Shown: one piece after another, positions 1-30,430 of the stretch
Layout: every line of letters starts with the position of its first letter
Position numbering within the stretch: the first letter of the stretch is position 1
Origin: a virus
DNA length: 41,822 bases
IMG/VR virus record: IMGVR_UViG_3300038682_000017
Direction: 5' to 3' (one strand)
The notes under the pieces: generated by a model
What the model saw: the letters and a program-made list of their open reading frames with translations, nothing else
Databases searched by the model: none
What the model was told of the DNA's origin: nothing
Translations under genes and position numbers: made by a program

Positions 1-90
1 AGGAGCAGCAGGAGCAGCAGGAGCAGCAGGAGCAGCAGGAGCAGCAGGAGCAGCAGGAGCAGCAGGAGCAGCAGGAGCAGCAGGAGCAGG
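1..90. repeat. 9-nt tandem repeat AGGAGCAGC x9 plus one variant unit. It is coding on the minus strand as (Ala-Ala-Pro)n. The same repeat closes the window at 41765-41822.
   Basis: Direct reading. Units are in phase from nt 1. nt 1-50 are identical to nt 41773-41822. Confidence 0.95.
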
Positions 91-189
91 ACTCACCGCT
101 TCGGCTACTTGTTCAGCGGTCACAGTCTTCTGTGCAACTAAGGCTTCAAGTGCATCAGCGATACGTTTAAGGTTGTTTTCAATCGACAT
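1..189 (-). CDS. N-terminal part of a hypothetical early protein with an (Ala-Ala-Pro)n linker. The ORF runs off the window start and appears to continue at 41596-41822.
   Basis: ATG at 189-187 (minus) lies 9 nt after GGAG. Translation [36 protein letters not shown](AAP)9 reaches nt 1 with no stop. It is not in the ORF track because it is split by the window edge. Confidence 0.6.
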
Positions 190-409
190 TGTAAAGTTCT
201 CCAAGTTGAGATTTTTGTTCTTCAGTTGGGACGATGCGTAAACGTCCGTCATTGAAGGCGGTTATCATTTCACGTAACAGTAGCTGGTACGGCTTACCTG
301 TCACACGTTTAGACTTCTTTTGAAAGATGTCGAGTTCAGACTGTGCTATACGCATTCGCAAGTCACCGTCTAAAACTTCTTTATCTTCCACTAATTCTTC
401 AGCAGACAT
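179..409 (-). CDS. Putative ribbon-helix-helix (Arc/CopG-like) transcriptional regulator; first gene of the leftward arm.
   Basis: 76-aa ORF with GAGGA 7 nt upstream of the ATG. The segment [36 protein letters not shown] fits a beta-strand / helix / G-x turn / helix RHH pattern (compare Arc). It sits directly downstream of a promoter carrying the recurrent operator-like motif. Confidence 0.45.
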
Positions 410-447
410 GTGAAGTTTCCTCGTAGTTCGTTATGTCACCGTGGATA

Positions 448-477
448 ATCATAGTGGAACAGTATGGAACGTGTCAA
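448..477 (-). promoter_or_regulatory. Leftward sigma70-like promoter: TTGACA, 18-nt spacer, TATGAT.
   Basis: On the minus strand, -35 TTGACA is at 477-472 and -10 TATGAT at 453-448. The spacer contains GTGGAAC..TGGAAC (plus strand 454-470). It lies about 40 nt upstream of the ATG at 409. Confidence 0.6.
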
Positions 478-486
478 CTAAAAAGT

Positions 487-515
487 TTGACAAAGTTACA
501 CAATGACTGTAAATT
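487..515 (+). promoter_or_regulatory. Rightward sigma70-like promoter: TTGACA, 17-nt spacer, TAAATT.
   Basis: -35 TTGACA is at 487-492, the 17-nt spacer is AAGTTACACAATGACTG, and -10 TAAATT is at 510-515. It is back-to-back with the leftward promoter, with 9 bp between the -35 boxes. Confidence 0.6.
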
Positions 516-642
516 GATTTCCAACAACATAAATGCTTAAATGTAAAAGCGGCTTATTCGTGACCGATCATCATGGAGACAGCCTACTCTGACCAGGTTG
601 CCGCAATCACAAAGGTCAGACATTAAATTAAGGTCAGAGCGA

Positions 643-3300
643 ATGACAGGACAATTACCCCTAAAAATCAGTAATAAAGAATTCATTGACGCTGTTTTCG
701 GTGAAGACGCACCGTGGTGTCACGTCACAGACTTCCCATACGATCCAGTTAATATTCCGAAAGACAAGCACTTAATCGCATGGAAAGGTGACTACTATTC
801 TCGTTACCAGTTACAACCTAACACTAACCAGTATTTCACCATCAGTCTCTTCTATGCTGACGATCAAGGTCAAGCACGTCGTCGTAAAGCACTGTTCAGA
901 AAGACACCGTGTATTGTACTCGATGACGTAAAAGAAAAACTGTCAATGGATGAGGTGAACAAGTTACCTCAACCTGCATGGATATTAGAATCATCAATCG
1001 GTTCTGAGCAATGGGGCTACATTCTTGATACACCGTGTGAAGATCGTGGTCGTGTTGAGAACCTGCTTGATGGTTTGGTGGCTAATGGTCTTGCACCTGA
1101 TGGTCGTGACCCTGGTATGAAGGGTGTAACCCGTTACCTGCGTTTACCTGAAGGTATCAATAATAAAGCAAACAAGCTGGTGAATGGTCAACCGTTCCAG
1201 TGTCGCATGTTGCACTGGCAACCGTTCAACCGTGTAACCTTAGAAGAATTAGCTGCACCGTTTGCAGTTGACCTTGATGCAGTGCGACGTGAGCAACGTG
1301 TTGATGGTGCTGCTGATGTCAGTGACCACCCGTTGATCAACATTCCTGAAATAATTCACATTAAGGAGATTCGCAGTGATGGACGATTCGATATTACCTG
1401 TCCGTGGGTACATGAACACACCAGTCAAGATGATTCAGGAAGCGCAGTCTTCACTAATGAAGACGGGACTATCGGTTTTAAATGTCACCACGGAGCATGT
1501 CAAGGTCGTACCGGTGCAGACCTTTTACGACACATCGAAAATCACTCAACAGGGTTCAGCTCGAAACTTAAAAACTGGCAAATTATGCGAGAGCTTGACA
1601 CAGTTGCACCTGAAATCTCTTTCATGTCCAGCGTACCTGCTGCACAACCAGCGACCAATGTTCAAGCAACAACCTCGGTGGGACATGCTGGAACTGCTAC
1701 AGCAAACCAAGGAGCAGATGAACCATGCTTCCTTTCAACACCTGTACCTCAACCAGCCAACACTGGATCAGTTGAAACCGTAACACCAGATGCAATTCAA
1801 CTTCTTTGTGACAACCTGCGTCGTCAGTTACCTGGTACAAGTGAGCAGCGTGAGCTTGCTGCTAAGGTGCTGAAGCACACTGATGACCTACCGAAGATGG
1901 AACAGAAGCACTGGCATGACGTGGTGGTTGACATCATGCGCTGGTCAAAAGCTGACTTCAAAGACATCATCAATGATCTGCGTAAGACATGGTATGGTGA
2001 GAAAGTCAGTGCTGCTGAATTCTATGACAACGTGGTATTTGTTAAAGAGTTAAACCAGTTCTATGACTGGGAGTCACGCATCTTCTTCAGCACTGAAGCA
2101 TTCCAAAACTCATTCAGTCACGAAGATGCTGAAGCACGTAAGATTGCACTGCAAGAAGGTCGTGTGCAAAAAGTTGACCGTCTGGACTACGCACCAAAAC
2201 AACCACGTATATTCATTGAAGATGGTTGTCGTTACGCTAACACGTGGAGTGATGCAACTCAGTCATTCGGTGCACCAGGTGATGCAAGTCGGTGGACTAT
2301 GCACTTCGACGCATTAGGGTGGGGTGAACACCGTGACCACATTGAAAAATGGATGGCATTCACACTGCGTCACCCTGACCGCAAGATAAACCACATGCTG
2401 CTACTCGGTAGCGGTGAAGGTTGTGGTAAAGACTTCCTATTGTACCCACTCATCAAAGCAATGGGTGAGAACCACACGGTGATCAGTGGTGAAGAATTAC
2501 TGGATGGGTTCAATGACTATGTACTGTCAACCAAGTATCTGCACATCAATGAAGCAGAGTTGGGTGACCGTCGTGAAGCACTTGCTGTCAGTAACAAACT
2601 CAAACCACTGGCTGCTGCACCACCAGAGCAGTTGAGCGTGAACCAGAAAGGTATCAAGCGCATTAAAGTACGCAACATTCTCAATGCTACTATGACCACG
2701 AACTCAGTTATGCCTTTACGCTTGAATGGTCCGTCACGTCGTTTCTATGCTATGTGGTCAGACCTGAACCCACGTGACAAGCAGGACAACATGAAACCTG
2801 AGTGGCTTCAATACTGGGAAGACAGATGGACGTGGATGAAAGCTGGTGGATGGAAAGCTGTTGTATACCATCTGATGCACACTGTTGACTTGTCTAACTT
2901 CAATCCTAATGAAGCACCACCTATGACTGAGTTCCTGCGTGAGATTAAAGAGTCATCGAAGTCACCAATGCAGCAGACACTTGAAGCATTCATTGACAAG
3001 AAACATGGTGCATTCCGTTGTGATGTTCTCACGACTAATGACATGGGTGAAACACTTCGAGCTGGTGCAATGACACCTGCTGATATGATGACCGATCCGA
3101 AGTTCTTCACCGATAAGAAGATCGGGATGCTGTTGAAAGAAATCGGTAGTTACCAGCAGGTGCGCTGTAGTAAAGCACGTCTGTGGGTTATCCGTAATGA
3201 AGAGAAGTACGCTGCTATGACTTCCCCTGACCTGTACCGTGAGTATGAGCGTCAGATGAAAGAAGCACGTGGTGAAGTTGGTTTACAAGTAGTTAATTAA
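643..3300 (+). CDS. Bifunctional DNA primase-polymerase (AEP-like) / SF3 (D5 or P4-alpha type) replicative helicase.
   Basis: The ORF extends at most from TTG 598. ATG 643 is preferred, with AAGG 9 nt upstream. It has an N-terminal acidic AEP-like motif PCIVLDDV and a central Cys/His cluster CPWVHEHT...FKCHHGAC. The C-terminal half has Walker A LLLGSGEGCGKDF and a Walker-B-like YLHINEAE. Confidence 0.8.
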   Translation: MTGQLPLKISNKEFIDAVFGEDAPWCHVTDFPYDPVNIPKDKHLIAWKGDYYSRYQLQPNTNQYFTISLFYADDQGQARRRKALFRKTPCIVLDDVKEKLSMDEVNKLPQPAWILESSIGSEQWGYILDTPCEDRGRVENLLDGLVANGLAPDGRDPGMKGVTRYLRLPEGINNKANKLVNGQPFQCRMLHWQPFNRVTLEELAAPFAVDLDAVRREQRVDGAADVSDHPLINIPEIIHIKEIRSDGRFDITCPWVHEHTSQDDSGSAVFTNEDGTIGFKCHHGACQGRTGADLLRHIENHSTGFSSKLKNWQIMRELDTVAPEISFMSSVPAAQPATNVQATTSVGHAGTATANQGADEPCFLSTPVPQPANTGSVETVTPDAIQLLCDNLRRQLPGTSEQRELAAKVLKHTDDLPKMEQKHWHDVVVDIMRWSKADFKDIINDLRKTWYGEKVSAAEFYDNVVFVKELNQFYDWESRIFFSTEAFQNSFSHEDAEARKIALQEGRVQKVDRLDYAPKQPRIFIEDGCRYANTWSDATQSFGAPGDASRWTMHFDALGWGEHRDHIEKWMAFTLRHPDRKINHMLLLGSGEGCGKDFLLYPLIKAMGENHTVISGEELLDGFNDYVLSTKYLHINEAELGDRREALAVSNKLKPLAAAPPEQLSVNQKGIKRIKVRNILNATMTTNSVMPLRLNGPSRRFYAMWSDLNPRDKQDNMKPEWLQYWEDRWTWMKAGGWKAVVYHLMHTVDLSNFNPNEAPPMTEFLREIKESSKSPMQQTLEAFIDKKHGAFRCDVLTTNDMGETLRAGAMTPADMMTDPKFFTDKKIGMLLKEIGSYQQVRCSKARLWVIRNEEKYAAMTSPDLYREYERQMKEARGEVGLQVVN

Positions 3301-7330: not shown

Positions 7331-8044
7331 ATGGCTAAAAAGAAACAAGAAGATTTATCTACATACGACGCAGTTAAGAAAGCATTCATTAAACGATGTG
7401 AAGACCTGTCACATGTTCGCAGCTTGCACGACGTGATCAGAGACTTTGCTGAACTGGGTCGTATCACTATCGTCAACCAACTCACACCGTTCTACTCGCA
7501 AGAATCAGAAGACACCTACCTGAAGACCATCAAGAAGTACAACAGTGATGAGCAGTCACATCTTGCTCAGATGCTTGCATTCGTGTCGATGGCTCACCAG
7601 ATGCAACACGGTGACTTCCTTGGTGAAGCACTGATGGAACTCAGTATGGGTCGTAAGGAGTTAGGTCAATTCTTCTCACCATACTCAGTCTGTCAGCTCA
7701 ATGCTCAGCTCAATGCTCAGATGTGTATCAGCGAATCATCGGTCAATGATAAAGGTTACATTACACTCAGTGAACCGGCTGCTGGTGGCGGTGGGATGGT
7801 CATTGCTGCACATCATCGTGCAACTGAGCTGAAGGTTGATCTGTATGCTCACTGTGTCGAACTTAGTCACATGACAGCAGACCTATGTTACATCAACCTG
7901 AGCGCAGCAGGAGTCGCAGCACACGTGACTCAAGGTAACACTTTATCAATGAAGATGGGTCGTAGCTTCCCAACACCTGCACTGTGTACTGAGCTATGGC
8001 ACAATCGATTTAAATCTAATCAAGAAACACCTTGCTGGTTATAA
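7331..8044 (+). CDS. N6-adenine-MTase-like SAM-binding-fold protein that ends before a catalytic (D/N/S)PP(Y/F) motif.
   Basis: GQFFSPYSV (about nt 7664) resembles motif X (GxFxTP) of gamma-class N6 MTases. LSEPAAGGGGMV (about nt 7772) resembles motif I. VELSHMTADLCYINLSAAG...GNTL resembles motifs II-III. The ORF stops about 30 aa later with no NPPY/NPPF. Confidence 0.5.
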   Translation: MAKKKQEDLSTYDAVKKAFIKRCEDLSHVRSLHDVIRDFAELGRITIVNQLTPFYSQESEDTYLKTIKKYNSDEQSHLAQMLAFVSMAHQMQHGDFLGEALMELSMGRKELGQFFSPYSVCQLNAQLNAQMCISESSVNDKGYITLSEPAAGGGGMVIAAHHRATELKVDLYAHCVELSHMTADLCYINLSAAGVAAHVTQGNTLSMKMGRSFPTPALCTELWHNRFKSNQETPCWL

Positions 8045-8408: not shown

Positions 8409-8843
8409 CCGTGAAACATTGTTGATTAAGTGACCGCCTTCGGGCGGTTTCTTTGTTTCTGTGGGACGCACTTTCTCAGCGACAGTTTAAAGCAATCTGT
8501 CACAAACGTGTCATAAATGAGAATGGTTCTCACAATGTTGCTGAAAATGGCGGTTTACAGTGCTTTCAGTAGAAATGGTGATTTGTAGCTACAGAATCCA
8601 TGACACATTGACGGTTTCATGACAGATTCAGGTAAAAACGTGTCATCGTCTGTAGCCCCCGTGGTTACTGGGTTTCTCTTCTTTTTTTTTACTTTTATGA
8701 CAGAATGACACATTTTTTAAGTAGTAGGAGTTATAAAATCGAAATGGTGTAAATCGGTAAGGAATGGATATTTAACGATGTGTCATACGTCAATGTGTCA
8801 TCGGTGAAATTGTAGTTCTCAGCGACAGTTTCCGTGAAACATT
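8409..8843. repeat. Iteron-like, repeat-dense non-coding region. It is a candidate replication origin, packaging/terminal-repeat region, or late control region.
   Basis: There are eight [G/C]TGTCAT heptamers in both orientations, the 9-mer GAAATGGTG twice, a T9 run with an AT-rich core, the palindrome TGTAGCTACA, and two flanking long direct repeats (12 and 16 nt). I saw no ORF with an SD. Confidence 0.7.
8433..8458 (+). terminator. Rho-independent terminator closing the early rightward genes.
   Basis: GC-rich stem ACCGCC / GGCGGT with tetraloop TTCG, followed by the T-rich tract TTCTTTGTTT. Confidence 0.8.
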
Positions 8844-8855
8844 AACCGGTGAACG

Positions 8856-9362
8856 ATGATTGGTGAATTGTCAAGGTTTGAGTTATTATGTGATCAATTA
8901 GGTATTGTGACGGATTCAAATATGAAGAGAATTACTATTGCAGACATCATCAAGCTACCACCGAAAGAAGCTAACTTCGTGGTGGAGTATGTGAAAGACT
9001 TTGCAGTGCGACGTGCAGCAGAAGCATCGGGGTATTATCCTGACCACGGCTACAAGCTACTTGAGAAGCAGGAAATCAGTGACGCTATTGAACACATCAT
9101 TCAACAACGTCTTGAAGTGAACATGATTGACGCTGACTGGTTGCTCAATGAGATGGTGGATAACCACATGATTGCACGTCAGCAGGGTAACATCACAGCA
9201 AGCAACACTGCACTCAGCATGGTGGGTAAGCATAAACGTGTCGATGCGTTTGCTGCTGACAAGATTAAAGTCAGCACCGATGCTGATGTAGTTGATAAGT
9301 TAGCTGCTGCACGTAGACGTGTTGCAGATCGTGATGAAGATGACGAACCATCATTCTTCTGA
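8856..9362 (+). CDS. terS: Terminase small subunit.
   Basis: The segment EANFVVEYVKDFAVRRAAEASGYYPDHGYKLLEKQEISDAIE matches the Terminase_2-type pattern (F..EY....N...AA..AGY). It lies immediately upstream of terL. An internal ATG at 8922 is an alternative start. Confidence 0.75.
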   Translation: MIGELSRFELLCDQLGIVTDSNMKRITIADIIKLPPKEANFVVEYVKDFAVRRAAEASGYYPDHGYKLLEKQEISDAIEHIIQQRLEVNMIDADWLLNEMVDNHMIARQQGNITASNTALSMVGKHKRVDAFAADKIKVSTDADVVDKLAAARRRVADRDEDDEPSFF

Positions 9363-21108: not shown

Positions 21109-22739
21109 TGCCTAAAGTCGCACAGTATGAAGGTAATCAGGTACTTACTCAGGTTGTTAGTCAACCACGTGCGGATGCGTCAGCAGGTAATGCTGTATTC
21201 CGTTCAAACATTCAAGCTGCTCAAGGTCTTGCTCAAGTAGCACAAGCTGGTGTTGAAGTTAAGCAGCGTATTGATACCACATCTGCTGAAGAAGCATTAG
21301 TGGCATTTGAGCGTGACAAAAACAATTTATTCTTTAATCCTGAAAACGGTTACTTCAATACACAGGGTAAGAATGCCTTTGATAACGCTACTGCTGCAAA
21401 TGATGCACTTGCAAAGCTAAAGCAGCAGTACGGTGATGGTCTGAATGAAAATGCTAAACGAATGTTTGATAAGTCAGCAGATGTTCATATTACACGTGGT
21501 CAAGCAGATATTGCGCGTCACTCAGCTAAAGGGTTGAAAGCGTGGGAAGTTGCCACTATTCGATCACAAGTAGAGAACACCGTTGAGAATGCTTCATTGT
21601 ATTGGAATCAACCTGATCAATTAGCGGTGCAAAATGCACTAGGTCGTCAAGCGGTGATTGATGCTGCTGAACTTGAAGGTATTGGTCCTGAAGCAACTGC
21701 TGAACGGTTGCAGACTTATGACTCATCTTTTGCTAAAGCAGCTATCACAGCAGCCACAGGTAATAGTGCTGCTGAAGGTCAACAGATGTTGGACAAACAT
21801 GGTGATAGATTAGAAGGACCTGATAAGCTGAAACTTGAAAAAGATATTGCAGCTAAACAAAAAGCAGAGAAAATTCAGGCTGATTCTCAACAAGCGATTC
21901 TCACCGGTACTAAACTGGTTGATACTTATGATGATCGTGAAGATATTCGTCAGGAAGTAAATAAAATTGAAGATCCTGAACTTCGTAAGAAAACAATGAC
22001 TGAAGCAATGCGTCAGTTTGAGTTGAAGAAGAAAGCTGAGAATGAAGCACAGACGGAAGCGTATGAAGCTGCTGAATCTCACATTATCAACGGTGGAAGT
22101 GCTGAAACTTATCAAGCTGAAGATCCTGAAGGTTGGGAACGTCTGACCGCTAAACAGAAACGCAGTATTGAAGAAGGTAAAGCAGTGATCACCGATTGGA
22201 ATGTTTATTCTGAATTGATGACATTACCTAAAGCTGAACTTGCTAAAGTTAACCCTAATGAACACTTCCACCAGCTTGCACCTGCTGAACGTAAATCTCT
22301 GGTGAGTGCTGTTAAAAGTGCAGGTGGTACAGGTTCATCTGCTGACAAGATTGATCATCAGATAGGTCGTACACGTAGTTCTCAGACTACTGCTGCTGTT
22401 GAACAGATACTTGGTAAGAAGAACAAGTGGAACGATGATAAGCGTAAACAAGCTGATGCTTTTTATGACCTGCTTGACGGTGAAGTTAAATTCCGTGAGC
22501 AGCAGAAAGGTGGACAGTTGAATTCCCAAGAATTTACTGATGTGTTGTCAGATTTAACAAGAGGGGTTACTATTGAGCGTAGTGCATTCGGTGTTGATTT
22601 CTTAGCACCAGATGTAGAACAAAATGTCACAGACATACCACCTGAGAACGTAAGAGTGTTGAGTAAATTCTTGCGTGATAATGGAATACCTGTAACTGCT
22701 GACAACTTGATTAAGGCTCAACGACAAGCGAGTGAATAA
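21108..22739 (+). CDS. Internal virion/core protein (T7 gp15 position).
   Basis: 543 aa, predicted mostly helical, with TAATG coupling on both sides. It lies between the gp14-like and gp16-like genes. Confidence 0.5.
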   Translation: MPKVAQYEGNQVLTQVVSQPRADASAGNAVFRSNIQAAQGLAQVAQAGVEVKQRIDTTSAEEALVAFERDKNNLFFNPENGYFNTQGKNAFDNATAANDALAKLKQQYGDGLNENAKRMFDKSADVHITRGQADIARHSAKGLKAWEVATIRSQVENTVENASLYWNQPDQLAVQNALGRQAVIDAAELEGIGPEATAERLQTYDSSFAKAAITAATGNSAAEGQQMLDKHGDRLEGPDKLKLEKDIAAKQKAEKIQADSQQAILTGTKLVDTYDDREDIRQEVNKIEDPELRKKTMTEAMRQFELKKKAENEAQTEAYEAAESHIINGGSAETYQAEDPEGWERLTAKQKRSIEEGKAVITDWNVYSELMTLPKAELAKVNPNEHFHQLAPAERKSLVSAVKSAGGTGSSADKIDHQIGRTRSSQTTAAVEQILGKKNKWNDDKRKQADAFYDLLDGEVKFREQQKGGQLNSQEFTDVLSDLTRGVTIERSAFGVDFLAPDVEQNVTDIPPENVRVLSKFLRDNGIPVTADNLIKAQRQASE

Positions 22740-25700
22740 TGCCAGATTTAGACCTTGAGAAGATTGACCTAGGTAGTTTCGGGTTAAATGAAGAAGATCA
22801 ACAACAGACACAGTTGAATGCTACTGTGTCTGAAGCGATTAAGGTTAACCCTGATCAATACATTCAAACAGTCAATCTTAGTAAGGAATCCGGTGTACCT
22901 GAATTCGCTGTACAATCTAACCCTGATCAAGTGCAACATAAACTGAAGTTGGACAAGATCAACCTCGAAGGTATGACTAAGCGTGCACCGAAGACTTCTA
23001 AATTCCTCACCGATAACCCGAACAATGCTGTCATTGCTCAAGAAGATGTTGTTGATAACCTGCTTGAAGGTATTGAAAAGACGTTTGATAACATCGGTGA
23101 AACCATCGGTATAGGTTTTGATATTCAAGGTCGTGGTCTGTTACTGGCTGGTAATGAAGCCACGACTAACCGTATTGATGATTTAATACCAGCAAGTGCT
23201 ATGCCTATCGGTATGGAATTTGAAGCGCAACGTCTATCACGTGAAATTGCTACTACCTTCGGGATTGAAACAGATGAGCAACTTGCTGAAGCTAAACAAG
23301 AATTCAGTGATAAATTAATCGGTGAAATTCAACAACTTCAGAAAGAACGTCAAGCATTAACACCTGAAGACATGAACATTGTGCAAGAAGGTGTGCGTGC
23401 AGGTGTTGAGTCACTTGCTAACATGTTACCTGGTGTTGCACTTACTGTTGCATCAGGTGGTCGTACAGCACCTTTACTATTCACCATTGGTGCACAGACA
23501 TTCTCAGGTTCATACGGTGAAGGTCGTGCTGAAGGTCTGACACCTGAAGAAGCTCGATGGTATGCTGGTATTGATGCAGCAATTGAAGTTGGTACTGAGT
23601 TGCTACCCACCGGTACACTTGAACGTATTCTCACCGGAAAAAGTACAGGTTTGAAAAAAGAAGCATTAAAGTTCATCGTACAGGAAATGGGTACTGAGCA
23701 ACTTGCTACATTAGGTCAGACACTTAACTCTTACGCTTTTGATTTAGATCAAGAACTTGCAAATGCTCAAACTGTTGAAGAGATGGTCAATATTCAGCTA
23801 CGTCGTCAAGCTGTCACTGCGATTGCAACAGTGGTAGCTGGTGGTACTCAGATAACTGCTGCAACTACTGTCAATAAAACTATTGAGAAACTTGCAGGTA
23901 CTGAGAATCAGATTGAAGCACAAGGTACTGTTGAGCAGCGTAACCTTGATAAGTTGAATGCTGATTCAGTTAACTCGAAACTACGTGAGCGTGATGTTGA
24001 GTCATTCAAGCAATTCGTGCGTGAAGCAGACGGTGAGAATGGTACAACAGTGTTCATTGACGGTGTTCAAACTGCTTTGTATTTGCAAAGTAAAACACGT
24101 GAGCAGATTGAGAATGACCCTGCACTGAAGACGCTTGATAACGCTGTGCGTGAGTCACGTCAGACGGGTGCAGATGTCGCTATACCTGTTGATGAGTTCA
24201 TGGGTGATGTTGCTGGTACTGAAGCATACACTGAGTTACGTGACCACATGACGATGAGTGCTGAGACAGTTTCACCATTCCGTCAAGAACAGCACAAGAT
24301 TGAGACTCAGGAGTATGTGAAGACTTTGCTTGATGAAGCAAATGAGAACGCATCTGAGTACGTTGAAGCGCAGGAGATTTACACACAGGTTCGTGACCAA
24401 CTGGTTGACACTGGTGTGGTGAACCCACAGAACGCTTCAACTATGGCACAGATTGTCCCTGCATGGGCTACTGCTCAGGCACGTCGTACAGGTCGCAGTG
24501 TTCAAGAAGTCTATGAGTCAGCAGGTCTGACTATTGAAGGACCACAGACCGGTGAGCTTGCACGTCTTGAAGGTGAGCAGGTGTTGACTCAGGACTTTGC
24601 TGACTATTTCAATGTTAAAAGTGAATCTCAAAGCATTGGAGCTGAGACAGGTAAATTCAATAAAGATGGTGTTTCTAAACTAGATGCTCAGTTTACACCT
24701 AATGAAAACTTTATCAGTCGTCGATATGTGAAAGCTAAAGACGGTGAGATAATTTCATTTGTTCAAGTCACCAGTACAGACGGTGGTAAAACTGCAACAA
24801 TAGCTAATGCTGCAACTAAAGATGAACACAAGCGTCAAGGTCATGCTAGTGAACTGTTAGCTGAAGCACGTAAGGATTTTGAATCCGTTGAACATTCTGA
24901 CGATTTGTCAGCAGAAGGTGCAGCATTTGCAGCAGCTACACCACAGGTATTCGAGCAATCGGTGATTGATGACCCACGTAACCTGTTCGTTGCTCACAAT
25001 ATCAGTGAAGCAGGTATCGCTGCTGCTGAAGACCTTGGTGGTCTGGCTGCACCGTCGATTGCTGTTGCTAACCTTGATGTAGGTGGTTTTGAATCTTTCG
25101 GTGAGATAACCCTACTTGCTGATCCTGAAGTCTTGAATGACCCTACCTTCAGAACATTCGACGCTGATATTTATAGTGCAAGACAACCACGTTCAGTTGA
25201 TAAGCTGGACCAGAAGAAAGTGCGTCAACTGAGTGACGATGTTGATCAAGCAAACCAGGGTACAGGGTTGCGTCCGTTCTATGAAGTTCAGGAAATAGCT
25301 GACCTTGATAAAGATAACGTATTTAACTACTGGCTCACCACGGTGGGTAAAGCACCTAAGCTGAAGAAGATTAAAGCAACACCGTTATCGAAAGCAGTTG
25401 AAGGTGTTGAGAATTTTGACTTAGCAGAAAGTGAACAACTGAAACAAGCTGTTGCTGACATCTATAAAAAGCAGATTGACACAATACTCGGTGATAACCC
25501 TACTGAAGCAGAAACTGAACTTGCAATGGATATTGCAGCAGATTGGTTCAATGTAAAAATACCTGAAGGTGTAGAACTACGCTGGTTACCAGATGAAGGT
25601 TCAAACGGTAGCTATGCTTATTTCAAAGGTGATGAACGTGTATCAGATGTTTATAGTCGTGGTAACCGTTTAATGTCTAAGCGTCTTGCTGAGAAGCGTT

Positions 25701-28700
25701 ATGCTGATGAGCTAGTTGAATCAGGTGAGTTTGAATTAGATTTCACTTCCCCTAAACCGAAGCTGATCACCGATGCGGTAAATGAAGTTCGTAAAATCCG
25801 TGAAGGTTTTGATCAACAGAAATTTGCTGAAGACTTGGCTAAGAAGAATCAGAACAAGAAACTACGTTCTGACTTTAAAGAGTGGATGAATGAAACCTAT
25901 GCTGACATGTTAGTTAAACGTCAGCTATTTAAAGGCTACACACCAGCAGGTGACCGTAAGTATGCTGAATACACTTTGAATAATGTTGTCCGTGAGATGA
26001 CAAGAACATTGCAAGGCGGTGAAGGTTTTAACTATGGTGTTGCGTCAGTTCGCTCACGTTACGCTAATGAACTGTCTACAAAAGAAAAGGTGCAAGCTGT
26101 ACGTGATAAAATTATCTCATCAGATGAAATGTCAAAGATTAAAGACGAAGCTGCTGAGAAATTTGAAAAAGCATTAGAAGAATTGAAACCTTATTACAAG
26201 TTCGATTCTGACAGTTGGGGCTATGGTAGTGATGTTGCTGAAGCAATCACACAAGGTCCATCTGGTGTACGTGAAGCATTCGGTAATAGTCCTGAAGCTA
26301 GAAAGATTATTGATGAACTCGGTAAATATTTAGCATCGTTACCAACTGAGTATTTTGAAGCTAAAGTACAACGTGCTATGGATTTTTCAGAGTTCAACAC
26401 CGCTATTGTTCCTAAAAGTGCATCAAAGAAAACTGTTGATACTTTGAAATCGAAAGGTTTAAAAATTCGCAGATACGATCCTAATGTTGAAGGTTCACGT
26501 GCTGAAGTAATTGCTAAACAAACACGTTTACTTTTCCAAGATCAACCTGACACCGGTAAAGCTCGTGGTTACTACGACCCTGAGAACAGTATCATCAGAC
26601 TGACTGAATCTGCTGACCTGTCAACATTCCTGCACGAATTCGCTCACTTCATGTATGAGATGGAAGTGCAGTCAGGTACTGAGTTGAATGACAGCATCAA
26701 CAACTGGTACAAGCGCAATGCTAAAGAAGTTGCTGCTGAAGCGACTAAGAACCTCAACGGTAACTTTGACCCACTGAAGCAGGGTGAACGTGTTACTGAT
26801 GAAAAACAGACGGTGAATGAAGCGAGTGTCATCAACTACCTTGACACCGGTACTTCAGGAAACCGTGACAAAGATGCTGCAATTCGTCGTGCTGTACATG
26901 AACAGTTTGCTCGTGGGTTCGAGACTTACCTGATGGAAGGTAAAGCACCAAGTATTGAACTGCGTAACGCATTCAGAACCTTTGCACGTTGGTTGTCTCA
27001 GATTTATCAAGCATTCCGTGGTAACTTGAACGTGACACTCGACAACGAGATGCGTCAAGTATTTGACCGTTTGCTTGCTACTGAAGAACAGATTGCTGCT
27101 GCTGAGTCACGTGCACGTGTTGAACCAATGTTCACCGATGCTGCAATGGCTGGTATGACTGCTGAAGAATTCGCTGACTATCAGAAGCGTCAGGGTAAAG
27201 TTAAGGACGTACAGTCTGAGACACTGCGTGACAAGATGATTGCTGCTATCACCCGTAAGACTGAACAGTGGTGGAAAGAAGAAAAAGCTGACCTAGTTGA
27301 TGAAGAGATGGGTCGTCTAGCCGGTGAAAAAGTTTACTCGACTGCTACACGTCTTCGTGATGGTGACATCAAACTTGACCATGCAACCGTGAAAGAGATG
27401 ATCGGTGAAGAACGTACTGACAAGCTGGGTCGCAAGTCTATACGCATTCCTGATCAACTTCGTGGTATGACGGCAAAAGGTCAGAAAGGTATACAACCTG
27501 ATGAAGCTGCTGCATTCTTCGGTTACAACTCAGGTGCTGAGATGTTGAACGACCTGACCACTGCACCATCGATGCGTGAGACTGCTGAAGCTAATGCTGA
27601 GTCACGTATGACTGAGCGACACGGTGACCCGTTCACTGATGGTACGATTGAACGACTTGCTGATGAAGCAGTGCAGAATGAAGAACGTGGTAAGCTGATC
27701 CTGCATGAATTGAAGATGCTTGCACGTGGTACTAATCAGCGCACCATTGACCGTCAAACAATGAAATCGGTTGCTGAAGAACGTATCGGTCAGTTGTCAT
27801 TCCGTGAGATTCACCCTGGTAAATATCGCAAGGCTGAGATTCGAGCTGCACAAGAAGCTGCACGTATGCTGGCTGAAGGTAACAAAGAAGGTGCTGCTCA
27901 AGCTAAAGCACGTCAAGCATTGAACTATTACCTCGGTATGGCTGCGACTGAAGCGAAGAATAACACGGTGAAAATCGTTGACCGTATGGGTCGCTACAGT
28001 AAGAAGAAAGTGCGTGAGGAAATTCAGAAAGCTGAAGGTGGGTACTGGGAACAGATCACCAAGATACTTGATCGCTTTGAATTCAGAAAAACTGCATCAC
28101 TTGCTCAGGTTGATCAACTTAATCAGGACATCAACACCTGGTCAAAAGAACGTATGGACGTACACGGTGACGGACTGGTGCTGCACAATGCAGTGTTGAA
28201 TGAGTCTTATGTTACCCATTGGAAGAATGTTGCTTATAGTGACCTTCAGGGTATCGATGACTCAGTGCGTAACATCGAACACGTTGCACGTTACTCGAAC
28301 AAACTCACTCGTATGGGTGAAGAGATTGAGTATAACAAACTTGTTGAAAAGCTGGTGGCAACTGCTGCTGAAACAGGTACTGGTCGATTCAAGAAGAGTG
28401 CAAGTACTGCTGATGACCTGAGCTGGATTGAACGTAAGGGTCGATGGGCTATGGCTCAGATGACTAAGATACCTTACATGATGTCATGGATGGACGGTGT
28501 TGAACGAGTAGGTACATGGTTCACCACGTTCTCACAACCGATGACGGATGCTTACAATGCTGAGTTAGAGTTGTTTGAAGAAGTGGGTAAACCTGTTATC
28601 GATATGATTCAGAACCGTAGCAAAGAAGACATGAAGCGTCACAACACTACATTCTTCATACCTGAAATCAAAGGTACAGCAAACGGTACTCACACCGGTA

Positions 28701-30430
28701 ACTTGAAAGGTCATGAGATTATTGCAGTCGCATTGAACACTGGTAACGAAGGTAACTTGAAAAAGATGCTACTCGGTGAAGGTTGGGCTAAAGAAGATGG
28801 TAACGACATCAACTTGCAGAACGCTCGACTACAAGCTGTGTTGAAGCACATGACTGAATCAGACTGGCAGATGGTTCAGAAGATTTGGGATCAGATTGAT
28901 ATTCTTTACCCGAAACTTGCTGAAGTGTATCGTCGCACCACTGGACTTGTACCACCTAAAGTTGAAGCTACACCGGTTGAAACACCATACGGTACATTCA
29001 AAGGTGGTTACTACCCTGTTAAGTATGACCCGACTCGTGACAATAAAGCTGCTGAGTTTGAAGAACGTAAAGATGCTGAAGTGGGGTCAATGTTTGCCAG
29101 TAACGCCAGCATTCAAGCATCGGTGAACACTGGTTCAACTAATGAACGTACAGGTTACTACGCACCGATTCACTTGACGTTGAACGTAGTTCCTAATCAT
29201 ATTCAGGAAACCATTCACTATATTACTCACCATGATGCAGTGCGTGAGGTGAACCGTTTACTGCGTGACCCACGGATCAAGGACGCTGTGACTGAGAAAC
29301 TAGGTCCTGAAGAATTCGCACAACTTAAACCGTGGTTGAACGATATTGCTAAAGATGGTCGTAACGCACCTAACAAGTCGATTGTTGATGCAATGTTCAA
29401 CAGACTGCGTTTAGGTACTACACTCGGTGTAATGGGTTTCAAAGCGTCTACCGGTATCATTCAGATTTCAGGTCTGTCTAACACCATTGCTGAAGTGGGT
29501 ATGAAGCCGGTGATGCAGTCAATGCGTACTATACTCGGTAGTGTTGACAGCATGAGAAGTGCCTGGGAGTTTGCCAATGAAAAGTCTAAAGTGCTGAAGC
29601 ATCGTACTAAGACAATGGATCGTGAATTGATGAATGCAATGCAACAGCTCGAAAGTAAGCGTGGTGTATTTGCAGCAATTCAAGAAGCGTCGATGAAACA
29701 TATTGCATTGATTCAGACTTACATGGTTGATTTACCATCATGGCACGCTGCGTACATTAAAGAACTCAGTGAATCTGGTGACGAAAAGAAAGCGTTCCAA
29801 TATGCTGACTGGGTGATTGAAAATGTTCAAGGTTCAGGTGTGACTAAAGACATGGCTGGTCTGATGCGTAACCAGACTAAGACGCACACCATCTTCACCA
29901 TGTTCATGACTTTCTTCAGTGCATTGTGGAACTTACAACGTGATCTGGTGAAAGGTGCTAAGACAGGTAAATACTCGACCACTACTGTTGCAGCTAAAGC
30001 AATGTTCTTGTTCACCATACCAGTATTGTTCGAGATGATGATGCGTGGTGAGTTTGCGAAAGATGACCAAGAACCTGAAGAGTTGTTACAAGAAACACTA
30101 ACTAAGGTCGCATTGTACCCGATTGCATCAATACCTTTTGTACGTGATGCTGCTAACGGTCTATTCAGTGGTTATCAGTACAACGCTTCACCGGTGACCT
30201 CTATCGTTGAGCAAGGTTTACAAGGTTTAAAAGGTGGTGGTAAAGCCGTTCTTACTGATGATGAATTGACAAAGAGTCAGGCTAAATCAATCAGTAAATT
30301 ACTAGGTGCAGGTTTAGGTGTACCAGGTACAGGTCAAGCGTGGGCTTCCGGTGAACATTTATATGATGTCATTGCTGAAGGTGAAGATTTCACCATGCAC
30401 CAGTTCTTATTTGGTCCTGAGCATAAGTAG
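22739..30430 (+). CDS. Giant (2563-aa) internal virion/ejection protein in the T7 gp16 position, with embedded HEXXH zincin-like and GNAT-like modules and a C-terminal multi-TM region.
   Basis: Uninterrupted 7.7-kb ORF coupled by TAATG. HEFAH lies at nt 26633-26647 (aa 1299-1303). HKRQGHASELL lies at about nt 24826-24860. Hydrophobic helices lie at about nt 29400-30150. The position call rests on synteny with T7 gp16. Confidence 0.7.
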   Translation: MPDLDLEKIDLGSFGLNEEDQQQTQLNATVSEAIKVNPDQYIQTVNLSKESGVPEFAVQSNPDQVQHKLKLDKINLEGMTKRAPKTSKFLTDNPNNAVIAQEDVVDNLLEGIEKTFDNIGETIGIGFDIQGRGLLLAGNEATTNRIDDLIPASAMPIGMEFEAQRLSREIATTFGIETDEQLAEAKQEFSDKLIGEIQQLQKERQALTPEDMNIVQEGVRAGVESLANMLPGVALTVASGGRTAPLLFTIGAQTFSGSYGEGRAEGLTPEEARWYAGIDAAIEVGTELLPTGTLERILTGKSTGLKKEALKFIVQEMGTEQLATLGQTLNSYAFDLDQELANAQTVEEMVNIQLRRQAVTAIATVVAGGTQITAATTVNKTIEKLAGTENQIEAQGTVEQRNLDKLNADSVNSKLRERDVESFKQFVREADGENGTTVFIDGVQTALYLQSKTREQIENDPALKTLDNAVRESRQTGADVAIPVDEFMGDVAGTEAYTELRDHMTMSAETVSPFRQEQHKIETQEYVKTLLDEANENASEYVEAQEIYTQVRDQLVDTGVVNPQNASTMAQIVPAWATAQARRTGRSVQEVYESAGLTIEGPQTGELARLEGEQVLTQDFADYFNVKSESQSIGAETGKFNKDGVSKLDAQFTPNENFISRRYVKAKDGEIISFVQVTSTDGGKTATIANAATKDEHKRQGHASELLAEARKDFESVEHSDDLSAEGAAFAAATPQVFEQSVIDDPRNLFVAHNISEAGIAAAEDLGGLAAPSIAVANLDVGGFESFGEITLLADPEVLNDPTFRTFDADIYSARQPRSVDKLDQKKVRQLSDDVDQANQGTGLRPFYEVQEIADLDKDNVFNYWLTTVGKAPKLKKIKATPLSKAVEGVENFDLAESEQLKQAVADIYKKQIDTILGDNPTEAETELAMDIAADWFNVKIPEGVELRWLPDEGSNGSYAYFKGDERVSDVYSRGNRLMSKRLAEKRYADELVESGEFELDFTSPKPKLITDAVNEVRKIREGFDQQKFAEDLAKKNQNKKLRSDFKEWMNETYADMLVKRQLFKGYTPAGDRKYAEYTLNNVVREMTRTLQGGEGFNYGVASVRSRYANELSTKEKVQAVRDKIISSDEMSKIKDEAAEKFEKALEELKPYYKFDSDSWGYGSDVAEAITQGPSGVREAFGNSPEARKIIDELGKYLASLPTEYFEAKVQRAMDFSEFNTAIVPKSASKKTVDTLKSKGLKIRRYDPNVEGSRAEVIAKQTRLLFQDQPDTGKARGYYDPENSIIRLTESADLSTFLHEFAHFMYEMEVQSGTELNDSINNWYKRNAKEVAAEATKNLNGNFDPLKQGERVTDEKQTVNEASVINYLDTGTSGNRDKDAAIRRAVHEQFARGFETYLMEGKAPSIELRNAFRTFARWLSQIYQAFRGNLNVTLDNEMRQVFDRLLATEEQIAAAESRARVEPMFTDAAMAGMTAEEFADYQKRQGKVKDVQSETLRDKMIAAITRKTEQWWKEEKADLVDEEMGRLAGEKVYSTATRLRDGDIKLDHATVKEMIGEERTDKLGRKSIRIPDQLRGMTAKGQKGIQPDEAAAFFGYNSGAEMLNDLTTAPSMRETAEANAESRMTERHGDPFTDGTIERLADEAVQNEERGKLILHELKMLARGTNQRTIDRQTMKSVAEERIGQLSFREIHPGKYRKAEIRAAQEAARMLAEGNKEGAAQAKARQALNYYLGMAATEAKNNTVKIVDRMGRYSKKKVREEIQKAEGGYWEQITKILDRFEFRKTASLAQVDQLNQDINTWSKERMDVHGDGLVLHNAVLNESYVTHWKNVAYSDLQGIDDSVRNIEHVARYSNKLTRMGEEIEYNKLVEKLVATAAETGTGRFKKSASTADDLSWIERKGRWAMAQMTKIPYMMSWMDGVERVGTWFTTFSQPMTDAYNAELELFEEVGKPVIDMIQNRSKEDMKRHNTTFFIPEIKGTANGTHTGNLKGHEIIAVALNTGNEGNLKKMLLGEGWAKEDGNDINLQNARLQAVLKHMTESDWQMVQKIWDQIDILYPKLAEVYRRTTGLVPPKVEATPVETPYGTFKGGYYPVKYDPTRDNKAAEFEERKDAEVGSMFASNASIQASVNTGSTNERTGYYAPIHLTLNVVPNHIQETIHYITHHDAVREVNRLLRDPRIKDAVTEKLGPEEFAQLKPWLNDIAKDGRNAPNKSIVDAMFNRLRLGTTLGVMGFKASTGIIQISGLSNTIAEVGMKPVMQSMRTILGSVDSMRSAWEFANEKSKVLKHRTKTMDRELMNAMQQLESKRGVFAAIQEASMKHIALIQTYMVDLPSWHAAYIKELSESGDEKKAFQYADWVIENVQGSGVTKDMAGLMRNQTKTHTIFTMFMTFFSALWNLQRDLVKGAKTGKYSTTTVAAKAMFLFTIPVLFEMMMRGEFAKDDQEPEELLQETLTKVALYPIASIPFVRDAANGLFSGYQYNASPVTSIVEQGLQGLKGGGKAVLTDDELTKSQAKSISKLLGAGLGVPGTGQAWASGEHLYDVIAEGEDFTMHQFLFGPEHK

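What the first reader, a model, noticed from the sequence alone, without database searches (positions are those of the whole stretch)
8409..8843. Repeat-dense non-coding region upstream of terS: candidate origin, packaging/terminal-repeat region, or late control region
The gap between the early terminator (8433-8458) and terS is the longest non-coding stretch in the window, and it is heavily patterned. There are eight [G/C]TGTCAT heptamers. Four are in plus orientation, at 8508-8514, 8640-8646, 8780-8786 and 8795-8801. Four are in minus orientation (ATGACA[C/G]), at 8600-8606, 8619-8625, 8697-8703 and 8705-8711. The exact 9-mer GAAATGGTG occurs at 8572-8580 and 8741-8749, with shorter AATGG variants near 8522, 8546 and 8763. 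The palindrome TGTAGCTACA lies at 8584-8593. A T9 run (8682-8690) opens an AT-rich core that extends to about 8740. Two long direct repeats frame the region: CCGTGAAACATT at 8409-8420 and 8832-8843, and TTCTCAGCGACAGTTT at 8473-8488 and 8816-8831. Iterons flanking an AT-rich core are the classic origin layout, and the encoded primase-helicase is of the P4-alpha type, which binds repeated ori motifs. Alternatively, T7 carries arrays of short repeats next to its terminal repeats, and the position just before terS would suit a pac site or genome end. A third option is binding sites for a late-gene activator, since I found no good sigma70 promoter for the structural operon.
Basis: seen in the sequence. 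Interest (0 to 1): 0.7.

Follow-up and report, generated by a model that had tools for sequence, protein, structure and literature searches.

The report
Conserved repeat array before phage terminase
The 450-500 bp gap between the early and late genes of this marine Vibrio-type podophage holds an array of short protein-binding repeats that its relatives also carry, and it most likely marks where genome packaging starts and the genome ends lie, although a replication origin or a late-gene switch is not ruled out.

Summary
Every coordinate checks out. The [G/C]TGTCAT heptamers are strongly clustered: 8 of the window's 30 copies lie in 300 bp, and 6 of 7 exact AAYSTGTCAT copies lie there. This is also the longest ORF-free stretch in the genome.

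The array is conserved. About 30 related phages and viral contigs carry 6-16 copies of the same or a lineage-specific variant motif, in both orientations, in the same early/late gap. The surrounding DNA is otherwise unalignable.

The two "framing" repeats are themselves variant copies of the motif, not neutral duplications.

The closest cultured relatives are Vibrio phages 1.021.A/B/C and 1.185.O. Their depositors linearised them at a short read-coverage maximum, interpreted as terminal repeats. Those cut points fall within about 100 bp of the repeats nearest the late genes. The packaging/terminal-region reading therefore has the only empirical support (confidence about 0.45).

An iteron origin (about 0.2) and an operator array for a late switch remain open. 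A resemblance to host PhoB boxes is noted but weak. A positionally conserved sigma70-like late promoter does exist once terS is restarted at 8922. This is a new example of a known kind of cis-acting region, of moderate interest.

The parts
8409..8420 (-). B1: CCGTGAAACATT. On the minus strand it reads AATGTTTCACGG, a variant of the repeat motif. It lies just upstream of the early terminator.
   Evidence: A counterpart, CCGTGAAACA(T/C) or the near-copy CCCTGTGAAACAT, sits directly before the (different) terminators of L050, L106 and L109.
8432..8458 (+). Intrinsic terminator that closes the rightward early operon.
   Evidence: 7-pair stem with 5 G-C pairs, then a T tail. This is the only part of the gap that aligns by DNA to relatives, at 97%.
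8473..8488 (-). A1: TTCTCAGCGACAGTTT. On the minus strand it reads AAACTGTCGCTGAGAA, a variant repeat.
   Evidence: It matches the L081 repeat AAACTGTCGCAGAAAAT and TGTCGCTGAGAATG in L041 and L108.
8494..8514 (+). Tandem pair AATCTGTCAC / AACGTGTCAT with 11-bp spacing. The core 8497-8514 resembles a Pho box.
   Evidence: The same pair lies at the left edge of the array in L050 and L048.
8572..8580 (+). GAAATGGTG, copy 1 (copy 2 is at 8741-8749).
   Evidence: family D10. It has only two copies and was not followed up in relatives, so its significance is uncertain.
8584..8593 (.). Palindrome TGTAGCTACA.
   Evidence: Conservation was not examined.
8600..8628 (-). Two minus-orientation repeats (AATGTGTCAT at 8600-8609 and AATCTGTCAT at 8619-8628). 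The second Pho-box-like 18-mer lies at 8608-8625.
   Evidence: 8600-8613 forms a perfect 14-bp inverted repeat with 8788-8801 (pair I3).
8637..8646 (+). Repeat AACGTGTCAT, preceded by an A-run (AAAAACGTGTCAT).
   Evidence: The AAAAACGTGTCAT form recurs in most relatives.
8675..8775 (.). AT-rich core, opened by the T9 run at 8682-8690. It holds the overlapping minus-orientation repeats at 8697-8706 and 8705-8714.
   Evidence: it contains the most AT-rich 80-bp window of the genome. The element ATGACAC(A/G)TTTTT followed by an AT-rich stretch is found at the same relative position in most relatives examined.
8741..8749 (+). GAAATGGTG, copy 2.
8777..8801 (+). Proximal composite GATGTGTCAT-ACGTCA-ATGTGTCAT: two plus-orientation repeats with a GTCA core between them.
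   Evidence: A similar composite, CGATGTGTCAYCGTCATGTGTCAT, lies before the late promoter in L046, L103, L106 and L109. The record cut (coverage maximum) of phage 1.021.A falls in its equivalent pair.
8816..8843 (-). A2 plus B2, contiguous 28 bp: two variant repeats side by side.
8809..8838 (-). Leftward sigma70-like site, TTCACG-18-TACAAT, lying over A2/B2. There is no leftward gene in this genome.
   Evidence: 9 of 12 matches, and the number of sites found in the region equals chance. Many relatives carry a leftward gene here.
8860..8889 (+). Candidate late promoter TTGGTG-18-TATTAT.
   Evidence: 8 of 12 matches, below the threshold of the scan tool. Its position is conserved relative to the first late gene in relatives.
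8922..9362 (+). terS (Terminase_2 family). The start is probably 8922 rather than 8856.
   Evidence: PF03592, E = 1e-12; homology begins at 8922; similar to a solved small terminase deposited with nine chains.

Best explanation
The gap is the cis-acting control region at the early/late boundary of the genome. Its repeat array is most likely the recognition platform for DNA packaging: the pac site, or the region of the genome ends or terminal repeat.

Proposed mechanism. About 13 copies of a 10-16 bp motif (consensus AAAAYGTGTCAT(G/C)GATT) lie on both strands. Nine are canonical and four are the variants A1, A2, B1 and B2. Preferred spacings are 11 bp for tandem copies and about 20 bp for divergent pairs. 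The copies flank an AT-rich, easily deformed core. A multimeric DNA-binding protein assembles on them and wraps or bends the DNA. The most economical candidate is the ring-shaped small terminase encoded immediately downstream. The large terminase then makes the first cut nearby, and packaging proceeds rightward into terS, terL and the structural genes.

The same region also carries the early terminator and a sigma70-type late promoter. This matches the SPP1 pac region, which spans the promoters and the start of its small-terminase gene.

What is shown and what is inferred:
- Shown: the array, its conservation, its spacing rules, its fixed place in the gene order, and the coincidence with coverage maxima in relatives.
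- Inferred: that termini lie here in this phage too, that TerS is the binding protein, and where the cut falls.
For: 1. The motif cluster is highly non-random and unique in the genome.

2. The cluster is conserved in the same gap in cultured relatives and in IMG/VR and metagenome contigs, while the spacer DNA is unalignable. This is the signature of selected protein-binding sites.

3. Some lineages carry their own variant: GCGTCATGG in L045 and L037, CCGTCACGG in L051, AGAGTCA in L078, and CTGTCGCAG in L081. This points to a phage-encoded reader rather than a host one.

4. Same-strand neighbouring copies are most often 11 bp apart, and divergent pairs 19-23 bp apart. Copies therefore tend to sit on one face of the helix.

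5. Read-coverage data for the nearest cultured relatives show a short internal peak or a coverage shift. The depositors inferred 'Terminal Repeats' and cut the records at the maximum (PMC6029569, Supplementary Table 2).
   - For 1.021.A/B/C the cut falls between two proximal repeats, AAACTGTCATG|GACGTGTCACC, 114 nt before the first late ORF.
   - For 1.185.O it falls about 60 nt to the right of the proximal repeat.

6. The array lies directly upstream of terS, which belongs to the Terminase_2 family, the family of the SPP1/SF6 small terminase. [quoted passage not shown]

7. No second repeat cluster exists elsewhere in the genome that could serve as pac.
Against: 1. No read data exist for this phage, so its termini are unmapped. 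The depositors of the relatives say their aim was standardisation, not proof of topology.

2. Epsilon15 and Pseudomonas phage AF have the same TerS/TerL family but different replication genes. They have only about 75-90 nt upstream of terS and no array. The array therefore travels with this phage lineage, including its replication module, and not with the terminase family.

3. The putative recognition helix of TerS is identical (DHGYK) in genomes with GTGTCAT, GCGTCAT and CCGTCAC repeats. TerS therefore does not track the variable positions of the motif.

4. For the SF6/SPP1 small terminase, the box repeats were shown not to be bound specifically (PMC4737164). Repeats next to terS need not be TerS sites.

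5. The nearest TerL relative analysed with PhageTerm (UFJF_PfDIW6, 47% identity) showed no terminal repeats. The type of genome end in this clade is unsettled.
Confidence: 0.45

Rival explanations
1. Iteron-type origin of replication. A phage initiator binds the repeats and melts the adjacent AT-rich core at 8675-8775, where the replisome loads. The initiator could be the 900-aa primase plus SF3 helicase, or a small early protein.
For: - The layout is the classic one: multiple repeats in both orientations flank the most AT-rich 80 bp of the genome, with a T9 run.
- The unit ATGACAC(A/G)TTTTT followed by an AT-rich stretch keeps its position in most relatives examined.
- The array is unique in the genome. 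No other candidate origin was found in the divergent early promoter region or inside the primase gene.
- The array co-occurs with this replication module and is absent from epsilon15 and AF, which share only the terminase family.
- Lineage-specific repeat variants are typical of initiator/iteron pairs.
Against: - No origin-binding domain was found. The best solved match of the primase is an SF3-type helicase domain (6K9C/6K9E), and only about 36 residues follow the helicase region, so nothing like the P4-alpha C-terminal domain appears by sequence.
- Primase residues do not track the GTGTCAT to GCGTCAT change: 8 scattered differences.
- There are no DnaA boxes or IHF sites in the gap.
- GC skew keeps the same sign across the region.
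- A replication origin does not explain a coverage peak in virion DNA of relatives.
Confidence: 0.2
2. Operator or enhancer array for the early-to-late switch. A phage DNA-binding protein occupies the repeats to activate or repress the late promoter in front of terS and, in relatives, the leftward promoter in the same gap. One candidate is the conserved 76-aa product of ORF 179-409 (minus strand), which the first reader called an RHH protein.
For: - A positionally conserved sigma70-like -10 element with a weak -35 lies 30-65 nt before the first late gene. Repeats, or the A-like element TGTCGCTGAGAATG, lie immediately upstream of it.
- Many relatives have divergent transcription out of this gap.
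- A motif-like sequence, TGTGTCACCGTGG, is conserved in most relatives examined, at about the predicted start point (my inference from the promoter positions) of the leftward early transcript that begins with the 76-aa ORF. One protein could therefore act at both places.
- The 76-aa protein is present in every relative examined.
Against: - Nine to 16 sites spread over 300-450 bp, many of them 200-400 bp from the promoter and on both strands, is far more than known late-promoter operators need.
- The RHH fold was not verified: there is no Pfam or PHROG hit, and the single-sequence AlphaFold model has pLDDT 64 and is all-helical.
- The residues I would predict to contact bases are the same in genomes with different repeat variants.
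- This reading does not explain the coverage maxima in relatives.
Confidence: 0.15
3. Binding sites for the host phosphate-starvation regulator PhoB (Pho boxes), coupling late functions of a marine phage to phosphate supply.
For: - The heptamer is the Pho-box half-site. The E. coli consensus is CTGTCAT-A(AT)A(TA)-CTGT(CA)A(CT) (PMC3465305).
- 8497-8514 (CTGTCACAAACGTGTCAT) and 8608-8625 on the minus strand match the 18-mer with 3 mismatches. They are the only two such matches in 41.8 kb.
- L050 and L048 have 2-mismatch versions at the same position.
- The commonest tandem spacing is 11 bp, and copies are preceded by an A-run, as in Pho boxes.
Against: - Only about one full 18-bp box occurs per relative, and half of the relatives have none. 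Most copies are single or spaced 7-8 or 13-20 bp apart.
- None of the boxes sits about 10 bp upstream of a -10 element in place of a -35 (my reading).
- Several lineages have replaced the TGTCA core by CGTCA, AGTCA or TGTCG, which a conserved host protein would not be expected to follow.
- The host of this phage is not known from the window.
Confidence: 0.06

Closest known systems
pac region of Bacillus phage SPP1 (and SF6)
   Same: - The small terminase belongs to the same Pfam family, Terminase_2.
- Both are non-coding regions with several sets of short repeats that span the late promoter(s) and the start of the small-terminase gene (PMC4737164).
- Both contain bendable, A/T-run-rich DNA.
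   Different: - SPP1 has three pairs or sets of direct repeats. Here one motif family is present in about 13 copies on both strands over about 430 bp.
- In SPP1/SF6 the repeats proved dispensable for binding by the TerS DNA-binding domain.
- Cleavage and termini are unmapped here.
- The TerL here is closest to the epsilon15/AF clade, not to SPP1.
P1 pac site (from memory: seven TGATCA/G hexamers, four on one side and three on the other of the cleavage site)
   Same: Many copies of a 6-7 bp motif are arranged on both sides of a central segment next to the packaging genes.
   Different: - The P1 hexamers are Dam methylation sites. The motif here contains no GATC, and only one GATC lies in the gap.
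- The P1 site is about 160 bp long and lies inside pacA.
- This comparison rests on my memory, not on a test.
T7 concatemer junction (terminal repeat flanked by arrays of short repeats)
   Same: - The phage is a podovirus with a T7-type portal (PF12236, E = 1e-157).
- The depositors inferred terminal repeats for its relatives.
- There is an array of heptamer-scale repeats in the terminal region.
   Different: - TerL and TerS are not T7-like. The Nahant authors found no reference terminase match ('None').
- No phage RNA polymerase was found among the proteins scanned.
- The repeats are on both strands and appear to overlap the coverage peak rather than sit beside it.
- The function of the T7 arrays is itself unknown (from memory).
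Iteron origins (lambda ori, P4 ori/crr, iteron plasmids)
   Same: Multiple copies of a lineage-specific motif lie next to an AT-rich stretch, and the genome encodes a primase/SF3-helicase protein of the broad P4/D5 kind (DUF5906).
   Different: - No origin-binding domain was identified.
- The repeats are 7-10 bp cores with irregular spacing, not 17-22 bp units in regular tandem.
- The position beside terS, together with coverage peaks in virion DNA of relatives, points to packaging.
Lambda cosB (R1-R3 sites for gpNu1 plus an IHF site, directly upstream of Nu1)
   Same: Repeated binding sites for the small terminase, in both orientations, lie immediately upstream of its gene (from memory).
   Different: - Lambda has three 16-bp sites plus IHF. 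No IHF-like site is present here.
- There is no evidence for cohesive ends.
- The HNH gene present in relatives is absent here, so it is not an obligatory cos-cleavage partner.

Membership tests
pac/terminal region recognised by terminase | Lies at or next to the small-terminase gene | tested here: met
   The array ends 79 nt (B2 ends at 8843) before the revised terS start at 8922. Its position in the gene order is the same in about 30 relatives.
pac/terminal region recognised by terminase | Physical genome ends, or the packaging-series start, map to the region | tested here: inconclusive
   No reads are available for this phage. In relatives 1.021.A/B/C and 1.185.O the depositors' coverage maximum, used as the record start, falls within about 100 bp of the proximal repeats. 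This is indirect and was judged by hand.
pac/terminal region recognised by terminase | Small terminase binds the region specifically | not testable with these tools
   The covariation surrogate was uninformative: the putative TerS recognition helix is identical across repeat variants.
pac/terminal region recognised by terminase | The feature accompanies the terminase family in other phages | tested here: not met
   Epsilon15 and Pseudomonas AF (TerL 41-47% identical) have about 75-90 nt and no array upstream of terS.
T7-type direct terminal repeat system | T7-like large terminase | tested here: not met
   The nearest TerL relatives are epsilon15, phiV10, AF, Ab31 and Liberibacter phages. There is no Pfam hit at E <= 0.01 and no PDB sequence match.
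T7-type direct terminal repeat system | Exact terminal duplication of a few hundred bp in virion DNA | not testable with these tools
   An assembly collapses such a repeat. The window ends lie in an unrelated 9-bp coding tandem repeat.
Iteron-type replication origin | Three or more repeated initiator sites next to an AT-rich unwinding element | tested here: met
Iteron-type replication origin | A cognate initiator with an origin-binding domain (for the P4-alpha type, a C-terminal winged helix) | tested here: inconclusive
   Primase and DUF5906/SF3-helicase regions were found. No match to the P4-alpha origin-binding domain was found by sequence. Structure was not predicted.
Iteron-type replication origin | Host initiation or architectural sites (DnaA boxes, IHF) | tested here: not met
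   None lie within 8409-8921. The nearest DnaA-like 9-mer, with 1 mismatch, is at 8397 in coding DNA.
Iteron-type replication origin | Supports phage-dependent replication; copy-number peak in infected cells | not testable with these tools
   This needs an experiment.
Pho box (PhoB regulon promoter) | Two 7-bp direct repeats separated by 4 A/T-rich bp (11-bp period) | tested here: met
   Two sites match with 3 mismatches, at 8497-8514 and at 8608-8625 on the minus strand. They are the only ones in the window.
Pho box (PhoB regulon promoter) | The box replaces the -35 element, about 10 bp upstream of a -10 element | tested here: not met
   No -10-like hexamer lies at the required distance from either box (read). 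The candidate late promoter is about 250-350 bp away.
Pho box (PhoB regulon promoter) | The TGTCA core is kept wherever the feature is conserved | tested here: not met
   Variants with CGTCA, AGTCA and TGTCG cores occupy the same region in L045, L037, L051, L078 and L081. Full boxes are absent from half of the relatives.

The most novel reading that the evidence does not exclude
The array is a single shared hub: one phage-encoded protein, not TerS, coats about 13 sites to coordinate shut-off of early transcription, firing of the late promoter, origin melting and terminase entry.

Alternatively, the Pho-box-like copies let the host's phosphate-starvation regulator PhoB gate the late functions or packaging of a lytic marine phage. 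That would be a direct cis-acting link between nutrient status and virion production.
Probability: 0.08. Interest if true: 0.75.

Novelty: new member of a known kind. Interest (0 to 1): 0.42.

Why it matters
This group of marine Vibrio podophages has a T7-like portal, an epsilon15-like terminase, a primase plus SF3 helicase protein, and no RNA polymerase among the proteins scanned. It has no experimentally defined origin, pac site, genome ends or late promoter.

The work here pins down one 430-510 bp segment that carries the only conserved cis-acting array in the genome. It gives the motif consensus, its variants, its spacing rules and the candidate promoter. It also ties the segment to coverage peaks in cultured relatives.

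That makes the obvious experiments cheap: terminus mapping, binding assays with TerS, the primase and the 76-aa protein, and plasmid packaging or replication assays. It also gives annotators a principled place to start the genome coordinates.

The lineage-specific motif variants offer a natural system for studying how a DNA-binding protein and its sites co-evolve.

Tried and rejected
1. Framing repeats as boundaries of a 343- or 423-bp terminal repeat, or as a recombination scar. Rejected as stated. A and B are motif variants with counterparts in relatives. The coverage cut of 1.021.A falls on the proximal repeats, not at an A-like boundary. No relative has the same A/B pair.

2. Covariation to identify the binding protein. 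The TerS helix-turn-helix, the primase and the beta-strand region of the 76-aa protein were compared across genomes with GTGTCAT, GCGTCAT and CCGTCAC repeats. None tracks the variants beyond general divergence. The test is uninformative, not negative.

3. Mosaic test: phages sharing the primase but not the terminase. No intermediate relatives exist among 50,697 phage records. Identity drops from 74% to below 27%.

4. Contig ends as markers of physical termini.
   - Many contigs end 400-700 nt upstream of the primase, but that is the 9-bp tandem repeat breaking assemblies.
   - Several contigs start in the array, and three or four start exactly at a repeat (L039, L093, L091, L099).
   - They do not share a homologous position, so assembly breakage cannot be excluded.

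5. The repeats as sigma70 promoters. The motif is -35-like (TTGACAC in PS25B.1), but no -10 element follows at 16-18 bp.

6. Both are absent from this genome.

7. Structured RNA. There is no Rfam match at E <= 1.

8. Fold of the 76-aa protein.

9. Literature on genome ends in the epsilon15/AF terminase clade. Ends could not be localised for Ab31, no repeats were found for UFJF_PfDIW6, and the epsilon15 paper is not held.
Full report
WHAT THE WINDOW IS

The 41,822-bp window is a complete phage genome whose two ends both lie inside one 9-bp tandem coding repeat, (AGGAGCAGC)n. It is therefore a circularly closed assembly, and its ends say nothing about physical termini.

Gene content:
- a leftward replication block: helicase, methyltransferases, DNA polymerase and ligase;
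- a rightward early block: a 900-aa primase plus SF3 helicase, thymidylate synthase, ribonucleotide reductase, MazG and an N6-methyltransferase;
- terS, terL, a T7-type portal (PF12236, E = 1e-157) and the structural genes.

The nearest cultured relatives are Vibrio phages PS25B.1, 1.185.O, 1.021.A/B/C and MZH0603.

THE OBSERVATION

Every coordinate in the finding is correct.

The heptamer [G/C]TGTCAT is not enriched genome-wide: 30 copies against 26 +/- 5 in shuffles. But 8 of the 30 lie within 8508-8801, where about 0.2 are expected. By my arithmetic the Poisson P is about 1e-10. The longer form AAYSTGTCAT has 7 exact copies in the window, 6 of them here, plus a one-mismatch copy at 8494.

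The segment is the most repeat-dense non-coding stretch of the genome. It contains the most AT-rich 80 bp and is the longest stretch free of + strand ORFs. Two other public assemblies reproduce it exactly.

One correction is needed. All relatives' terS homology starts at 8922, so the gap probably runs from 8409 to 8921. The upstream in-frame ATG at 8856 is preceded by GGTGA, so it cannot be dismissed.

CONSERVATION

At the DNA level only the terminator aligns to relatives. Even so, the same motif is clustered in the same place in the gene order in:
- the GenBank relatives;
- 18 IMG/VR contigs found through TerS;
- further metagenome contigs.

There are 6-16 copies per genome on both strands. 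The pooled consensus is about AAAAYGTGTCAT(G/C)GATT.

Some lineages use a variant:
- GCGTCATGGATT in L045, L037 and L052;
- CCGTCACGGAT in L051;
- AGAGTCA in L078;
- CTGTCGCAGAAAAT in L081.

Individual elements keep their position:
- a tandem pair just after the terminator (W, L050, L048);
- ATGACAC(A/G)TTTTT opening an AT-rich stretch;
- a composite GATGTGTCAY-CGTCA-TGTGTCAT before the late genes.

Same-strand neighbours are most often 11 bp apart (9 cases), then 8 and 7 bp. Divergent pairs cluster at 19-23 bp.

Conserved sites in unconserved spacer, with helical phasing and lineage-specific variants, mean selected binding sites for a protein that evolves with the phage.

THE FRAMING REPEATS

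At the right side, A (16 bp) and B (12 bp) are contiguous. At the left side they are in the order B, terminator, A.

Read on the minus strand, A is AAACTGTCGCTGAGAA and B is AATGTTTCACGG. Both are variants of the motif.
- A matches the L081 repeat and the TGTCGCTGAGAATG element next to the late promoter in L041 and L108.
- A B-like CCGTGAAACA(T/C), or the near-copy CCCTGTGAAACAT, precedes the different terminators of L050, L106 and L109.

They are therefore outlying members of the array, which then spans 8409-8843. They are not neutral duplications or recombination scars.

WHAT THE GAP CONTAINS IN RELATIVES

Many relatives have extra genes here:
- a leftward ORF of 137-293 aa with no family;
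- an HNH endonuclease (phrog_99) overlapping the terS start.

Neither has a homologue in this genome.

EVIDENCE BEARING ON FUNCTION

The only empirical data come from Kauffman et al. 2018 (PMC6029569). For 1.021.B and 1.021.C the coverage pattern was 'short_internal_peak'. For 1.021.A and 1.185.O it was 'shifts_in_coverage'. All were classed 'Terminal Repeats' and 'Rearrange at internal maximum', meaning the circularised contig was cut in the middle of a short high-coverage region.
- The 1.021.A record starts between two proximal repeats (...AAACTGTCATG | GACGTGTCACC...), 114 nt before the HNH ORF.
- The 1.185.O record starts 18 nt inside HNH, about 60 nt to the right of its proximal repeat.

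In window coordinates this corresponds roughly to 8780-8860. Whether the underlying structure is a short terminal repeat or the start of a headful series, virion-DNA coverage peaks mark the packaging and terminal region.

This agrees with two further points. The position is directly before a Terminase_2-family terS. [quoted passage not shown]

COUNTER-EVIDENCE AND RIVALS

1. Epsilon15 and Pseudomonas phage AF share the terminase family but not the replication genes. They have only about 75-90 nt before terS and no array. The array is therefore a trait of this lineage, not of the terminase.

2. The putative TerS recognition helix does not change with the repeat variant. In SF6/SPP1 the boxes were not bound specifically.

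3. The anatomy is exactly that of an iteron origin: repeats, a T9 run and an AT-rich core. No other origin candidate exists in the genome. However:
   - no origin-binding domain was detected in the primase;
   - no DnaA or IHF sites are present;
   - GC skew does not change sign;
   - an origin would not produce a coverage peak in virion DNA.

4. A late-control role is plausible for the proximal elements. A sigma70-like -10 element (TATTAT, TATCAT or TATAGT, often with TGn) lies 30-65 nt before the first late gene in nearly all relatives. Its -35 is weak, and repeats lie immediately upstream. In this window the site is TTGGTG-18-TATTAT at 8860-8889.

   A conserved 76-aa early protein (ORF 179-409, minus strand) is a candidate. 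Its RHH fold could not be verified.

   The divergent early promoter region has two back-to-back promoters whose -35 hexamers form TGTCAA-N8-TTGACA. It also has a conserved TGTGTCACCGTGG near the predicted start of the leftward transcript. The motif core is thus also -35-like. However, the repeats in the gap lack -10 partners.

5. The heptamer equals the Pho-box half-site (consensus in PMC3465305). Two 18-mers match with three mismatches. But full boxes are rare in relatives, are not at promoter positions, and the core mutates in some lineages.

VERDICT

The packaging/terminal option is favoured (about 0.45). The origin (about 0.2) and a late-control array (about 0.15) are not excluded, and PhoB is unlikely (about 0.06).
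- The functions may overlap in one region, as they do in SPP1.
- This is a new, well-delimited example of a known kind of cis-acting region in a phage group where none has been defined. It is of moderate interest and easily testable.

Noticed in passing
window 1-90 and 41765-41822: Both window ends lie in one 9-bp tandem repeat, (AGGAGCAGC)n. It encodes a PAAPAAP-type linker of a minus-strand protein that runs across the window junction. Many IMG/VR contigs of relatives break 400-700 nt upstream of the primase, at this repeat. It is an assembly breakpoint, not a genome end, and the true copy number of the repeat is uncertain.
   Followed up: partly
window 8856-8921: The terS ORF as listed (168 aa from 8856) has a 22-aa N-terminal extension with no counterpart in any relative. 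Homology starts at the ATG at 8922. The 8856 ATG does have a GGTGA upstream, so the true start is unresolved.
   Followed up: partly
window 410-597: The divergent early control region has two back-to-back sigma70 promoters: rightward TTGACA-17-TAAATT, and leftward TTGACA-18-TATGAT. Their -35 hexamers form the palindrome TGTCAA-N8-TTGACA. A further element, TTATGTCACCGTGG, lies near the predicted start of the leftward transcript. Most relatives examined share the layout.
   Followed up: partly
L005 2495-3962; L003/L004; L037-L057: In relatives the same gap is a hotspot for gene gain and loss. It can hold a leftward ORF of 137-293 aa with no family, a 37-aa ORF, an 85-aa ORF, or an HNH endonuclease (phrog_99) overlapping terS. 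All are absent from this window.
   Followed up: partly
L039 start, L093 start, L091 start, L099 start: Four independent metagenome or virome contigs begin exactly at or inside a repeat copy: ATGACAGATTTTT..., GTGTCATTTT..., TGCGTCATGG... and CAGATTTT.... This could reflect physical ends cut at repeats, or assembly breaks. They do not share one homologous position.
   Followed up: partly
L049 1-90: This contig starts with a 19-nt fold-back: TAAATTTGGCTATTTAAGG is the reverse complement of a sequence about 70 nt downstream. It lies just upstream of the B-like element and the terminator, and it looks like an end artefact.
   Followed up: no
window 8802-8868: A second short motif, (C/T)(C/G)GTGAA, occurs four times between the last repeat and terS: CGGTGAAA, CCGTGAAA, CGGTGAAC and TGGTGAAT. 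CCGGTGA also flanks a proximal repeat in 1.021.A. In some relatives the same letters are simply the ribosome-binding site.
   Followed up: no
window 22739-30430: A 2,563-aa protein (phrog_9880, unknown function, E = 5e-301) sits in the structural module of a 42-kb podophage. It is presumably an internal virion or ejection protein.
   Followed up: no
window 1750-2250: There are imperfect direct and inverted repeats of GCTGAAGCAC inside the primase gene. I took this to be coding repetition rather than a second cis-acting site.
   Followed up: partly
window 7331-8044, 35940-37067, 40698-41210: The genome carries three separate DNA methyltransferase genes. The N6-methyltransferase next to the gap is present in only some relatives.
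   Followed up: no
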